The notes beneath the pieces are model-generated. The model did not search any database. It was not told where the DNA came from and saw nothing but the letters and a program-made list of their open reading frames with translations. 64,000 nt of DNA from Eledone cirrhosa (taxonomy: Eukaryota). A program made the position numbers and the translations under genes. Within the stretch, counting starts at the first letter, position 1. Each line of letters opens with the position of its first letter. The stretch lies in NCBI GenBank assembly GCA_964016885.1, contig OZ024741.1, positions 366,420,001 through 366,484,000 of the forward strand, in the 5' to 3' direction. Below are positions 12,511 through 64,000 of this stretch, in pieces.

Positions 12511-12928
12511 TATATATATATATATATATATATATATATATATATATATATACTATCTCTCTCTATCTATCTATCTATATATCTATCTATCTATCTATCT
12601 CTCTATCAGACGTGTGTAACTTCGCGAGAAGTTTCCGTTAATTTAAGTAAGAAAAAAGCGTGAGTTTTTAGTTAAATTTTATATCATTGTGTAACTTGAC
12701 CACCCGTCTGGACCTTCAGTAGTGGGTCAACTCATTTTCGCCCCTACAGGGGCGAAATATCCGTTTGAAAAAAGTTTCTCCATCGAATCTTGGAAAAAAT
12801 ATTGTAAAAGTTTGATTACGTTATGAACGCTGCGTCCAACGATAATGGTGGTCGAGAGGCGGTAAGACTACAAAGCTCGCAGTCAACAACGTCTTCTTCA
12901 CTAGATACTATAGAGATGGAAAGACGAA

Positions 12929-14743
12929 ATGAAAATGCAAAAAGAAAAAACAAATTCATATCCAAACAACACAAATGACACCAAACAGTTCAATGACAAC
13001 AAAAATAACAGCAACACCAATAATGATGATAAAAACAACAATGATAACAACAACAAAGAAAAAAATAAAGACAACACCAATAACACCAGCATCAAAGACA
13101 ACAACAACACCAAGGAAAATATGAATAATATCAACATCGGTGACAACAAGAATAACAACAACAATAACAACAATAATGACAACACCACCAACACGGATTC
13201 CACAAAGAAACCAAAAATCTCCTTTGCAGAGAAAGTTCAAAAAAAGGAGGAACTGATATATGTCGACATAACAAATGCTGAACAACTTTTAAAGGACGCT
13301 AGGAGATATGTCACTTTCGAAAAAAATGGTGCTTTCAGCATCAATTCTCCGGTAGAAATTCGCAAGGAAACTGCTCTCAAAACGATAGTTTTTAGGACAG
13401 TTTCCAATTCTACCCGAAAACCAGTCCGATTGTCACAGAAAGAAATTGAACTGGTTTTCAAAAATTCAATGAATGATATTGCATTCATTCAAAGAAGCAA
13501 ACTTTTTGGGAGTATTTCGGTATTCATGAAGGATCAATTGACGGCCCAAAATTACTCTGTGTCGCCAATTGTATCCAACCTGTACACCTTTTTCCCTACA
13601 TACATGGGAAAAAGGACACAAAAGATCAGAATCACGAGTGTCACACCAAAAGTGAACATATGGTGGATACTGTGCGGCTTCATCAATTTTGATGAAGACA
13701 GAATACTGTCAATAGGAAAGTCCCCCAGAGATGTATTCAATGGGACTAGCATTGAAGTTCTGGTGCAAATGAGCCCAGAGCGAATAGCTATGATCCCACA
13801 ACGTGTACTCCTGGACGGACTCACCTACATAAACTTTTCGGTTGAGGGTAGGCGGCCTTCATGTTACCATTGCTTTAGCAGGGGTCACCTGAGGGCTTCC
13901 TGTCCTAAATTAATGAATCAAAAAAAGGCTCTTCTACCGACACCCATCAAAACAACACAACCACCAACACCACCACAACAAAAACAACACCAACACACAA
14001 AAATAACCACAACAAACACAGTCCCACCCAACCCCACTCCACCTAAAACCACTGCAAAATCACATACAGACACAACAGCTCCCCAAGGCATACCCCTCCC
14101 CAATCATACAGACGATACAACAGATGAGGCTATCTCGCCATCACCCAGTGAAGACGAGGGAGAACCCCATCGTTCGAAAAGAAAGAAAAGACATCACAAA
14201 AGCAAAAAAACAGCAAACACTACCACAAACATACAACCACCAACACAAACAACAAAAACATCACAAACAAAACCCCCACCTCCTGAAAACAAAATACCTA
14301 CAACAAAACGAAAGAACACACAAGAACTACAGACAAAAACAAACACAACACAAGAAAATTACACTTACACTTACATAAACACTGAAAACAAAACACTAAT
14401 GGAGACCATCACGAACGACCCTTCGGTTTTCACCGAAGGGAAAACTTTCGCCCACTCTATTAAAAATAGCAAAAAACTGAACCTAAAACTGATTAGGGTC
14501 CCTATACAAACTTATAGGTCCCTAAAAGAAACATTTGAGAAGGATGTGGGGAATTCCTGCGTGAAACCACTCAACCGCGTCCTTCTCAAATGTCTCCCCA
14601 CCCCAGACACCCCCATCCCACCAGACCCCACCCCACCAAACATCTCCGTCCCCACCCCGCCGGAAACCACCACCCATCCAGACAACCCCGCCAACACCCC
14701 CATGGAAATCGTGCGGCCTGGTCCCCAGGAGTTGGATGTGTGA
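12929..14743 (+). CDS. Tx1 ORF1 (gag-like nucleic-acid-binding protein)
   Basis: 604 aa: N-rich N-terminus, zinc knuckle CYHCFSRGHLRASC, P/T/K-rich linker. The last codons are altered by a deletion. The true start may be the out-of-frame ATG at 12823. Confidence 0.85.
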   Translation: MKMQKEKTNSYPNNTNDTKQFNDNKNNSNTNNDDKNNNDNNNKEKNKDNTNNTSIKDNNNTKENMNNINIGDNKNNNNNNNNNDNTTNTDSTKKPKISFAEKVQKKEELIYVDITNAEQLLKDARRYVTFEKNGAFSINSPVEIRKETALKTIVFRTVSNSTRKPVRLSQKEIELVFKNSMNDIAFIQRSKLFGSISVFMKDQLTAQNYSVSPIVSNLYTFFPTYMGKRTQKIRITSVTPKVNIWWILCGFINFDEDRILSIGKSPRDVFNGTSIEVLVQMSPERIAMIPQRVLLDGLTYINFSVEGRRPSCYHCFSRGHLRASCPKLMNQKKALLPTPIKTTQPPTPPQQKQHQHTKITTTNTVPPNPTPPKTTAKSHTDTTAPQGIPLPNHTDDTTDEAISPSPSEDEGEPHRSKRKKRHHKSKKTANTTTNIQPPTQTTKTSQTKPPPPENKIPTTKRKNTQELQTKTNTTQENYTYTYINTENKTLMETITNDPSVFTEGKTFAHSIKNSKKLNLKLIRVPIQTYRSLKETFEKDVGNSCVKPLNRVLLKCLPTPDTPIPPDPTPPNISVPTPPETTTHPDNPANTPMEIVRPGPQELDV

Positions 14744-61550: not shown

Positions 61551-63647
61551 TTACCGTACTTTTGGTAGAGGAGGGATGGTTTTTACATCCCTTTTCACTT
61601 GATCGTCTGGTGAAGGGACCGTTGAATCGTCCCTTCGGCTGGTCGTCGGCTCTTCTAAGAGAATGTCTGAGTATACTCTTCGATTGATGGTTCCTCCTAG
61701 GTCCCTGAAATCACCAACTGCGTTGGGGAATTTCGTTTTAATATTTGTGTATTGTTTCTGTGCTATTTTTAGCAGTCTTATGTTAGTTGGCGTTTTGATT
61801 GGTGCTGGTATTATGTAGTCCTGTTGTGAAATGTCTGTGTGTTCAATTATGTAAGTCATTAGTTTCTTGTTGTGTGTATTTATTGCCGTGCATTTGTTTT
61901 TCTGGGGGTGGGGTGTGGTTCTGCTATTTTCTTGTCGTTGTTGCTGGGTGTGTGTGTTTTGTTGTTGTGTTTGCGATGTTGGTGCTTGTGGTGGTGGTGT
62001 TGAAGGTGTTGTTGGCGGTGGGGTTGTCGCCGGTGGTGATGGTGGTGCTGGTGTGAGTGGTGATGGTGTTGGTGGTGTTGCTGCTGTGGGTCTCTTTGCA
62101 GTAGACTTTACCCTTTTCTCATTTCTTTCCTCCCTTTTCAAAGGCGACGATGCGCTGCTTCTGCGTTTGTGCCTTCTTGCGACCTTTTGCCATCCCTCTC
62201 CCACCTCACACTCCATGTCTGATTCTGTAAGGTCGGGGAGGGGTACCAGCTCCACTCTTTCACTTGTTGTTGTTGGTGATGTTTGCACTGGAGTCTCTGT
62301 TGCAGCTGCATTTGGTATTGCTGTTGTTGTTGTTAATATTTCCACTGCTGCTGCTGTCTTTGATTTCCGTGGAGTGGGTATGGGTGCCACGGACCTATCG
62401 TTCCTGGTTGCCGCTTGTCCTGTTGCTGGTAGCCGTGGAGCCGGATTCGGAAGGAGGGGGGTTTTCTCCTTTCTCAGGGTCTTCTCGTTGCAGAAGGCCC
62501 TGAGGTGAGTCTTCGATCCACAGCGAAAGCATTTCGGGCGTTTGCTCTCAACACTTATGGGCAGTTGAGTGCCGTTATCGAAGTCTATCACATCCGGGAT
62601 AGCTTCGATGCACTCCTGGTTGGTTTGGATTAGCATCTCAATGGAGGAGCCGACCCAATCTTCTCTTACTTTTTTCTGTACTTGCAGTACAGTTGTTTTG
62701 TCCTCGATTCCGACGAGGACAGACGCGGCCAGCCAAGAAGGGGTCATTCCGGGGGGGACGTGGGTCAGTTTGACCCTCACAATTTTTTGCCCGCAGTAGG
62801 AGGGCACCAACACCATTTCCTCACTCCTTAGGGTCACTACTGATTGGGCCTTTGCCTCCTGGGGTGTGGCAAAAAGTACGTCTACGGTGGCGTATTTTTT
62901 GCCTCGGGTGATGTGCGTTTTCCTCTGCCACACAGACCCCAAGGCTTTTTGTATTTGGGCCTCTGTGGCTCTTTCCACCCTACGGGATTTTGTACTTACT
63001 GTACGGTACGTGACCGTACAGTGCTCTTGGGTTTCGAAAAAGTTTTTCGCTGCCTTGCAGATTGCTCGGTGTCCGTTCTTTGTCACCATCTTCTTCGCTT
63101 CCTCTAATTCCTCATTTGTTATGAGGATTGTTTCCAAGTTTTTCGCAATACCTGCAAATGAGATTGGTTTTTCTCTGCTGTTGTTGTTGTCGTCAGAGCT
63201 GCTGGTACTTTTGTTGTTGCTGCAGGTACTACGACTACTGCCTCCGCCGCTGTTGCTGTGGTTGTTGTTGGTGTTGCTGCTGCTAATGCTGTTGTTGTTT
63301 ATGCTGCTGGTGATGCTGTTGCGGCTGCTACTGTTGTTTTCATTGTCACTGTTGCTGTTGTTATTACGGCTGCTACTGCTATTATTCCTGACGTCAGACG
63401 AATGAACTGGGTTTTCGTATTTCCCGCACACCTGTTTCGTCGCTGTCGTCGTCGTCGTGGAGAAACCTTGCACGCTTTGCACGAGACTTTTCTTTTCTTT
63501 CGTCGCTTGCGAAAGAGAAGGGAGGGAGAGAGACACATTTAAAGAAGGGAGGGAGAGAGACAATCTTCTCTCTGCTGTAGTGATGATTGAGGAAGAAGAA
63601 GACGGAATGAGTGGGAGTGACGTATGAAATTTCTTTTTCGTAGCCAT
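61551..63647 (-). CDS. Tx1 ORF1 (gag-like)
   Basis: 698 aa uninterrupted; S/N-rich N-terminus, zinc knuckle CFRCGSKTHLRAFC, P/T-rich linker, conserved C-terminal block. Confidence 0.92.
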   Translation of the reverse strand: MATKKKFHTSLPLIPSSSSSIITTAERRLSLSLPSLNVSLSLPSLSQATKEKKSLVQSVQGFSTTTTTATKQVCGKYENPVHSSDVRNNSSSSRNNNSNSDNENNSSSRNSITSSINNNSISSSNTNNNHSNSGGGSSRSTCSNNKSTSSSDDNNNSREKPISFAGIAKNLETILITNEELEEAKKMVTKNGHRAICKAAKNFFETQEHCTVTYRTVSTKSRRVERATEAQIQKALGSVWQRKTHITRGKKYATVDVLFATPQEAKAQSVVTLRSEEMVLVPSYCGQKIVRVKLTHVPPGMTPSWLAASVLVGIEDKTTVLQVQKKVREDWVGSSIEMLIQTNQECIEAIPDVIDFDNGTQLPISVESKRPKCFRCGSKTHLRAFCNEKTLRKEKTPLLPNPAPRLPATGQAATRNDRSVAPIPTPRKSKTAAAVEILTTTTAIPNAAATETPVQTSPTTTSERVELVPLPDLTESDMECEVGEGWQKVARRHKRRSSASSPLKREERNEKRVKSTAKRPTAATPPTPSPLTPAPPSPPATTPPPTTPSTPPPQAPTSQTQQQNTHTQQQRQENSRTTPHPQKNKCTAINTHNKKLMTYIIEHTDISQQDYIIPAPIKTPTNIRLLKIAQKQYTNIKTKFPNAVGDFRDLGGTINRRVYSDILLEEPTTSRRDDSTVPSPDDQVKRDVKTIPPLPKVR

Positions 63648-64000
63648 GTTGTTTTTTGTTTAAAATGAAATTTTGGGTACAAAACCCCAATAACTGGTTA
63701 TTTAACCCCGAAGGGCCAAATAACGGACAGAAAGACCCCTCTCACGAGGAGGAGGGTGTCTTTATCAACAATTTGGTTCAAGTTTTAAACAATTTACAAT
63801 TGTTTTAACGGTTAAAAATTACTATACCTTACAGAGCCGAGCCTCCGTCAACCATGGCATTCAATAATAATAATAATAATAATAATAATTTTAACAAACT
63901 ATAAAGTAGGTGAACATGTTAAACAAACTAAACTTAGAAAATTGAAAAAAAAGTACAGTATAAAATCAACATGTGACAGACATGCTGATAGAAATAATCA

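What the first reader, a model, noticed from the sequence alone, without database searches (positions are those of the whole stretch)
12545..63889. Two sister Tx1 families with different microsatellite targets: (TATC)n versus (ATT)n
Seen: family A copy 1 has (CTAT)n on both flanks and copy 2 has it at its 3' end. Family B copy 4 has pure (ATT)n on both flanks, and copy 3 has ATT repeats at both junctions. None has a poly(A) tail. The APE domains are clearly alignable (e.g. WTWRNRSGTSRSYLDR vs WTWTNRIGSSRSYLDR). Known: Tx1-clade elements are often sequence-specific, including microsatellite-specific Kibi/Koshi in fish. Inference: a cephalopod Tx1 radiation that switches microsatellite specificity, giving a natural pair for mapping endonuclease specificity residues. 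Only two copies per family support this here.
Basis: partly seen in the sequence, partly recalled or inferred. Interest (0 to 1): 0.75.

Follow-up and report, generated by a model that had tools for sequence, protein, structure and literature searches.

The report
Sister LINEs target different microsatellites
Two closely related groups of young, abundant jumping genes in this animal genome sit in different short repeats (ATT versus CTAT) and never crossed over in our samples, likely because both their DNA-cutting domain and their RNA ends changed, which would let one test how such elements choose a landing site.

Summary
Largely confirmed and extended genome-wide. 1,641 of 1,687 copies of the family-B 5' end directly follow (ATT)3. 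29 of 30 family-A 5' ends follow CTAT repeats. The repeat is a real target, not just a tail: 5'-truncated copies also abut it (CTAT group 44 of 66, ATT group 18 of 49; background under 1%; wrong repeat 0 of 115), and several show 15-21 bp duplications starting TATCT or (TC)ATTATT. Corrections: copy 3 belongs to a third lineage (75% RT identity to copy 4); the truncated copies 2 and 3 lack a 5' repeat tract; full-length copies likely carry a few repeat units at their own ends; there are many subfamilies, not two. The CTAT group is one clade; which target came first is unresolved. Three group-distinguishing APE positions align with DNA-contacting residues of human L1-EN. Microsatellite-specific Tx1 elements are known (Kibi, Koshi); I did not find these two targets in print, but could not search Repbase. 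This scan already reported the system from other windows of this genome. Tx1 membership and a cephalopod host are inferred.

The parts
12553..12607 (+). CTAT/CT tract 5' of copy 1, preceded by (TA)22; its last bases (CTCTATC variant) are likely the element's own head
   Evidence: variant in 26 of the first 50 genome hits listed
12608..18062 (+). Copy 1, CTAT-group subfamily A1: has both ends but is broken (ORF1/ORF2 spacer and ORF2 start deleted, frameshift near 17200, C-terminal deletion near 17760)
18063..18440 (+). TATCT-initiated CTAT tract continuing as a CT/CTAT mosaic
43897..43934 (-). (CTAT)9 at the 3' end of copy 2
43935..48101 (-). Copy 2, CTAT-group subfamily with A2-type 3' UTR, 5'-truncated in ORF1, decayed; no CTAT at its 5' junction
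51771..54364 (-). Copy 3, ATT-group family C (a third lineage), 5'-truncated in ORF2, decayed; degenerate ATT tail, 7-nt ATT at the 5' junction
56939..57775 (+). 3' relic of an unrelated LINE that looks R4/Dong-like (motif recalled; no Pfam hit) and ends in the (AAT)n tract occupied by copy 4 in the opposite orientation
57776..57832 (-). (ATT)19 at the 3' end of copy 4
57833..63862 (-). Copy 4, ATT-group family B, full length (6,030 nt), both ORFs open
58096..61515 (-). ORF2, 1,139 aa: APE endonuclease, RT, zf-RVT
60919..60951 (-). APE hairpin T189-S199, aligning to L1-EN T192-S202; I194 aligns to L1 Pro197 and is Ser in 12 of 12 CTAT-group rows
   Evidence: PMC8565326 passages
61549..61554 (-). 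GTAAGT splice-donor-like motif containing the ORF1 stop codon
61551..63647 (-). ORF1, 698 aa, with one CX2CX4HX4C knuckle
63863..63889 (-). (ATT)9 at the 5' end of copy 4

Best explanation
The four copies belong to a large, young radiation of APE-type LINEs, likely of the Tx1 clade, in which one group inserts at ATT repeats and a single related clade inserts at TATCT/CTAT repeats, likely because the endonuclease nicks a short motif and the RNA's own repeat end would then pair with the nicked strand to prime reverse transcription. Shown: group-specific junctions, targeting by truncated copies, target duplications, one CTAT clade, and tandem or nested stacking in earlier copies' tails. Inferred: the bottom strand is nicked within 1-2 nt of top-strand ^ATT or ^TATCT. 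The transcript would end in a few target-like units, because AATAAA lies 6 nt upstream of the tract and cleavage would fall inside it. Full-length RNAs likely also start with a few units that anneal at the 5' junction. The hairpin tip (I194S) and neighbouring DNA-facing positions are predicted to contribute to the switch.
For: Family-B head directly after (ATT)3 in 1,641 of 1,687. A-type head after CTAT in 29 of 30; strict 11-nt junction in 196 of 324. Position-ordered sample of 96 3' ends: full-length 16 of 16 ATT and 11 of 11 CTAT; truncated 5 of 20 and 25 of 45; wrong repeat 0 of 92; background 0.2-0.7%. Further truncated copies: 19 of 21 CTAT and 3 of 8 ATT; young family B 10 of 21 ATT and 0 of 21 CTAT. 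Duplications of 15-21 bp that include non-repeat bases: L285, L096, L071 perfect; L298, L118, L117, L275, L306 with one mismatch. The 3' junction starts ATT in 37 of 39 and TATCT in 47 of 57, sometimes as a single unit. No cross-group mosaics in 56 long copies. CTAT clade support 100/100 and 99. I194S, C/R152Y and S/M66G align to L1-EN P197, R155 and K70, which contact DNA in L1-EN (PMC8565326 passages). RNA-target pairing has precedent in SART1Bm and R1Bm (PMC7265360 passages).
Against: 31 of 49 truncated ATT-group and 22 of 66 truncated CTAT-group junctions lack the repeat, including both truncated copies in this window. Some are later interruptions or library-edge artefacts, but I did not resolve each. 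In L138, L133, L333 and L256 the non-repeat bases after a short 3' run are not duplicated at the 5' end, so simple target duplication does not explain all full-length junctions. Endonuclease, tail and head all change on the same branch, so their roles are not separated. The excess of diagnostic sites in the APE is weak (11/240 vs 5/340 in RT, p=0.037; vs the rest of ORF2, p=0.07), and the APE evolves faster on other branches too. Hairpin grafts in L1-EN did not transfer specificity (PMC1950540, PMC8565326 passages). The hairpin is poorly predicted in the model (pLDDT <50 at 196-199). No activity was shown.
Confidence: 0.68

Rival explanations
1. RNA-led targeting: both endonucleases nick AT-rich DNA loosely (for example at a TpA step present in both repeats), and pairing of the RNA's repeat tail with the nicked strand selects the site. 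The APE differences would then be neutral lineage marks.
For: Junction bases always match the element's tail, even at one-unit targets. Both repeats contain TAT. Pairing matters for SART1Bm and R1Bm. L1-EN reads DNA shape with few base contacts. An earlier scan note proposed the same idea (e1-9560819).
Against: 97% of B heads sit in exact phase with at least 3 units. Three distinguishing positions fall on DNA-contact equivalents. Published statement that target choice is mainly set by the endonuclease (PMC4494074 passage).
Confidence: 0.17
2. Endonuclease alone sets the target, and all flanking repeats are genomic tract plus target duplication.
For: 5' ATT runs in full-length B copies show a floor near 18-24 nt, similar to the duplication length (30 of 33 are at least 18 nt). 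Variant-containing duplications occur at L308, L379 and L380.
Against: A shared CTCTATC variant sits at the junction of about half of independent A loci. Full-length copies are 100% repeat-flanked against 25-55% of truncated copies in the position-ordered sample. Four full-length copies have no duplication of non-repeat bases.
Confidence: 0.12
3. No targeting: the repeats are element-encoded heads and tails, or insertions simply survive better in microsatellite-rich DNA.
For: Full-length heads probably carry some units. The region is very rich in microsatellites. Many truncated junctions lack the repeat.
Against: Truncated copies cannot carry the head, yet 62 of 115 abut the group's own repeat at many different break points and 0 of 115 abut the other. 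Duplications include unique bases. The far commoner TA, TG and TC repeats of the window are almost never used (1 TA case in 30).
Confidence: 0.03

Closest known systems
Kibi (TC)n and Koshi (TTC)n of teleosts; crocodilian Tx1 families at (TTCC)n/(TTTC)n (PMC4494074, passages and section 15; PMC3812793, passages)
   Same: APE-type, microsatellite-specific insertion; related families use different repeat units
   Different: Targets here are ATT and CTAT (GATA); likely an invertebrate host; at least 26,337 3' ends; very young intact copies; relationship to Kibi/Koshi not tested
Dong (R4 clade), TAA-specific (PMC3812793 passage)
   Same: Same TAA/ATT microsatellite; a Dong-like relic shares copy 4's tract
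   Different: Dong has a C-terminal restriction-like endonuclease (recalled); these elements have an N-terminal APE and two ORFs, and sit in the opposite orientation
L1-Tx1 families annotated in Octopus vulgaris (PMC13282606, passages: 13 recently active families, 421 insertions)
   Same: Recently active L1-Tx1 LINEs alongside active Dong-R4
   Different: The word 'target' does not occur in that main text; sequence identity with these families not checked; supplements not read
Human L1 endonuclease and the LTx/LR1 loop grafts (PMC1950540, PMC8565326, passages)
   Same: Closest solved structure (TM 0.78); hairpin of the same length; 15-21 bp duplications are L1-like (recalled)
   Different: About 20% identity; L1 primes on poly(A)/T-tracts, whereas these copies have no poly(A) and use repeat tails
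SART1Bm / R1Bm (R1 clade; PMC7265360 passages)
   Same: Repeat-specific APE elements in which target-like RNA sequence aids priming
   Different: Different clade; telomeric or rDNA targets; SART1 keeps a poly(A) tail

Membership tests
Tx1 clade (L1 group) | Two ORFs; ORF2 = APE + RT + C-terminal zinc-binding motif | tested here: met
   Exo_endo_phos, RVT_1 and zf-RVT above Pfam cut-offs; ORFs of 698 and 1,139 aa
Tx1 clade (L1 group) | ORF1 with a CCHC zinc knuckle (feature recalled) | tested here: met
   CX2CX4HX4C in 13 of 17 exemplars; Pfam zf-CCHC only below cut-off, E 0.23
Tx1 clade (L1 group) | Endonuclease closest to L1-type EN among solved structures | tested here: met
   All top hits are L1-EN or its loop variants
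Tx1 clade (L1 group) | RT phylogeny places it with Tx1L/Keno/Kibi/Koshi rather than other L1-group clades | not testable with these tools
   No named Tx1 reference was returned; the only named homologue is a Ciona pol-like protein at 27%
Target-specific Tx1 family (criterion in PMC4494074: one sequence type in >20% of flanks) | Flank preference above 20% | tested here: met
   97.3% for B heads; 60.5% strict and 29 of 30 loose for A heads
Target-specific Tx1 family | Target-site duplication showing insertion into a pre-existing site | tested here: met
   15-21 bp duplications with non-repeat bases in at least 8 of 121 junctions examined; undetectable in pure repeats
Target-specific Tx1 family | Endonuclease cleaves the target specifically in vitro | not testable with these tools
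   needs a nicking assay
Kibi / Koshi | (TC)n or (TTC)n target | tested here: not met
   Junctions are ATT or CTAT; TC/CTT tracts occur only next to them
Dong (R4 clade) | No N-terminal APE; restriction-like endonuclease after RT (recalled) | tested here: not met
   N-terminal APE present

The most novel reading that the evidence does not exclude
The ATT/CTAT switch was made by a handful of DNA-facing APE substitutions (hairpin tip I194S, C/R152Y, S/M66G) together with RNA ends that each element inherits from its own landing site, so specificity is self-perpetuating and could be redirected by changing a few residues plus the RNA tail. That would be the first residue-level code for microsatellite choice by an APE retrotransposon.
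Probability: 0.22. Interest if true: 0.78.

Novelty: new variant of a known kind. Interest (0 to 1): 0.5.

Why it matters
How APE-type retrotransposons pick microsatellites is described as not well understood (PMC3812793), and loop grafts between distant enzymes did not transfer specificity (PMC1950540, PMC8565326). Here groups with 62-65% identical endonucleases use different targets with no crossover seen, only about 11-14 APE positions separate them, and intact open reading frames exist for both groups, so endonuclease versus RNA-tail control can be tested directly. The radiation is also a sizeable part of this genome (at least 26,337 3' ends) and stacks into arrays. The lifestyle itself is known, which caps the surprise.

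Tried and rejected
DNA search with the family-B 3' UTR returned nothing because common words are skipped; patterns were used instead. Expression: no RNA holder listed; laying contigs of four runs gave no usable information on transcription or splicing. Spliced retrocopies at the ORF1-stop donor: 7 hits in family B, all point mutants, none joined (the pattern's last letter hides about a quarter of cases). ESM Atlas gave no answer. Homologue searches gave no named Tx1 reference. 'ATT ancestral, CTAT derived' looked supported in the APE and RT trees (C+CTAT 94/99) but the full-ORF2 trees put the groups as sisters (SH-aLRT 86-88; the careful search did not finish) and the AU test rejects neither (p=0.148), so the claim was dropped. 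The AlphaFold model confirms the fold but not the hairpin. Other targets: none seen among 96 position-ordered ends, but the pattern only catches ends with this motif, and the 37,970 APE candidates may include others. Literature searches found no ATT- or GATA-targeting Tx1; Repbase and Dfam could not be searched, subscription papers (Kojima and Fujiwara 2004) were not seen, and no supplements were read, so prior annotation is possible. L140 was a mistyped coordinate and was not used.
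Full report
Anatomy in the window. Self-comparison and ORF listing show four related LINE copies. Copy 4 (-, 63862-57833) is full length, with ORF1 of 698 aa and ORF2 of 1,139 aa; ORF2 carries APE, RT and zf-RVT domains above Pfam cut-offs. It is flanked by (ATT)9 and (ATT)19. Copy 1 (+, ~12608-18062) has both ends and CTAT tracts on both sides but is broken. Copies 2 and 3 are 5'-truncated. None has poly(A).

Scale. The window lies in a 3.0-Gb genome. 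A 21-nt 3'-end pattern occurs 26,337 times against 0 for the reversed control. All 150 listed hits to copy 4's APE are 100% identical over 240 aa, most in long open frames, some in head-to-tail arrays spaced about 6.08 kb. Full-length B copies in the first batch are 98-99.5% identical to copy 4, and 7 of 33 with both ends kept both ORFs by a strict rule (6 of 39 loci had no 3' end in range). Flanks contain 3' ends of further subfamilies in both groups; I used 6 ATT-group and 10 CTAT-group exemplars as a library.

Full-length heads. 30 of 30 B loci follow (ATT)n; genome-wide the figure is 1,641 of 1,687. For the A head, 29 of 30 follow CTAT and one follows (TA)n; a strict 11-nt junction is met by 196 of 324. 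This evidence is partly confounded. The same CTCTATC variant precedes the A head in 26 of the first 50 hits listed, which points to an element-carried head. In four full-length B copies with a short 3' run (L138, L133, L333, L256) the following non-repeat bases are not duplicated at the 5' end.

Target versus tail. Truncated copies cannot carry the head. I took the first 100 3' ends on contig C1, left out 4 that lay within 240 nt of another listed end, and walked upstream in 96; 4 ran off the fetched DNA. A run of at least 8 nt of the group's repeat was at the 5' junction in 16 of 16 full-length and 5 of 20 truncated ATT-group copies, and in 11 of 11 and 25 of 45 CTAT-group copies. The other group's repeat was there in 0 of 92; background was 0.2-0.7%. 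Similarity-selected sets added 19 of 21 CTAT and 3 of 8 ATT. An earlier scan note (e1-10315930) reported about half for truncated ATT copies, so I fetched 40 young B ends lacking a matched head: 19 of 19 proved full length with ATT, and 10 of 21 truncated had ATT, 0 of 21 CTAT. Totals for truncated copies are 18 of 49 and 44 of 66. The misses include later interruptions (L384 and L405 share the same foreign sequence) and library-edge artefacts, but not all were resolved. Duplications of 15-21 bp that include non-repeat bases start at TATCT or (TC)ATTATT in at least 8 of 121 junctions. Two bases after GAAA the flank begins ATT in 37 of 39 and TATCT in 47 of 57, sometimes as one unit only, so the recognised unit is likely a short motif that microsatellites offer in arrays. 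No cross-group mosaic was found in 56 long copies, while within-group mosaics are common.

Phylogeny. CTAT-group elements form one clade (UFBoot 100 in APE and RT; SH-aLRT 99 in full ORF2). Domain trees place them inside the ATT families as sister to C; full-ORF2 quick trees make the groups sisters; the AU test does not reject C+CTAT (p=0.148). So there was one switch, of unknown direction. Rows were stitched from individual copies; the outgroups are unnamed proteins at 40-43% identity. The full-ORF2 trees used 17 of 32 rows, leaving out the most decayed or redundant copies and the most distant outgroups.

Endonuclease. Eleven of 240 APE columns separate the groups by a strict rule, against 5 of 340 in RT (p=0.037, and 0.07 against the rest of ORF2). 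I194 (Ser in 12 of 12 CTAT rows) aligns to L1 Pro197, which enters the minor groove. Two further positions read by eye from the alignment, C/R152Y and S/M66G, align to Arg155 and Lys70, which contact the backbone (PMC8565326 passages). The position matching Asn118 does not separate the groups. With one switch, any lineage mark would look the same, and L1 loop grafts did not transfer specificity (PMC1950540 passages). The model matches L1-EN best (TM 0.78) but is unreliable at the hairpin.

Mechanism. Most likely this is target-primed reverse transcription, with the APE nicking the AAT- or GATA-containing strand at a short motif. The RNA would end in a few target-like units, since AATAAA lies just upstream of the tract; these would pair with the nicked strand, as proposed for SART1Bm and R1Bm (PMC7265360 passages). 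Second-strand nicking 15-21 nt downstream would give the duplications. Each insertion leaves fresh tract, which fits the arrays. Cleavage, RNA ends and pairing are inferred, not shown.

Comparison with what is known. Microsatellite-specific Tx1 families are described: Kibi (TC)n, Koshi (TTC)n and crocodilian (TTCC)n/(TTTC)n (PMC4494074 passages and section 15). TAA is the Dong target (PMC3812793 passages). Recently active L1-Tx1 and Dong-R4 are tabulated for Octopus vulgaris without targets (PMC13282606 passages). R4-Dong is almost confined to cephalopods among molluscs (PMC10294476 passages), which with the genome size makes an octopod host plausible but untested. PMC9115989 (passages) does not mention Tx1. 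Searches found no ATT- or GATA-targeting Tx1; Repbase was not available and no supplements were read. This scan has already described the system from other windows of the genome.

Verdict. A real, genome-wide feature and a new variant of a known kind: new targets, one switch between close relatives, and a short testable list of residues. Interest 0.5.

Noticed in passing
window 61549-61554 (-) and 14 of 17 exemplars: A splice-donor-like motif (G|GT[AG][AG]GT) sits 29-47 nt before the ORF2 ATG; in six exemplars it contains the stop (TAA or TAG) that ends the upstream frame. A pyrimidine tract follows. No spliced retrocopies were found in family B. Earlier scan notes report the same motif.
   Followed up: partly
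window 56939-57775 (+): A Dong/R4-like LINE relic ends in the (AAT)n tract holding copy 4 in the opposite orientation; what looks like the same 3' sequence flanks many B and C copies (e.g. L066, L130, L134, L137).
   Followed up: partly
G000:C2:188052701-188077759 and others; L122, L123, L136: Head-to-tail arrays of up to five young B copies spaced about 6.08 kb and separated only by (ATT)n.
   Followed up: partly
L252, L290, L317, L270, L289, L374: Mosaic elements joining parts of different subfamilies, always within one target group.
   Followed up: partly
L062, L071, L074, L306, L387, L133: ATT-group copies, especially family C, also sit at short ATT units inside (ACT)n/(AGT)n tracts, suggesting a relaxed third base.
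   Followed up: no
L074, L078, L086-L088, L129, L259: A recurring short element directly follows ATT tails; possibly a SINE sharing the target.
   Followed up: no
window 3257-5154: 30-bp minisatellite, about 64 copies, roughly 90% matches.
   Followed up: no
window 36964-37689 (+): 241-aa open frame resembling the C-terminal restriction-like endonuclease region of a non-LTR element (recalled); no Pfam hit.
   Followed up: no
window 26047-27154, 10601-10877/12218-12510: Inverted-repeat pairs (99% over 344 nt; 91% over 296 nt) next to (TA)n tracts, likely MITE-like elements.
   Followed up: no
window 49830-50065 and 54459-55447: 37-bp tandem repeat (6.4 copies, 98%) and a 1-kb degenerate (GTTG)n tract just upstream of copy 3.
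   Followed up: no
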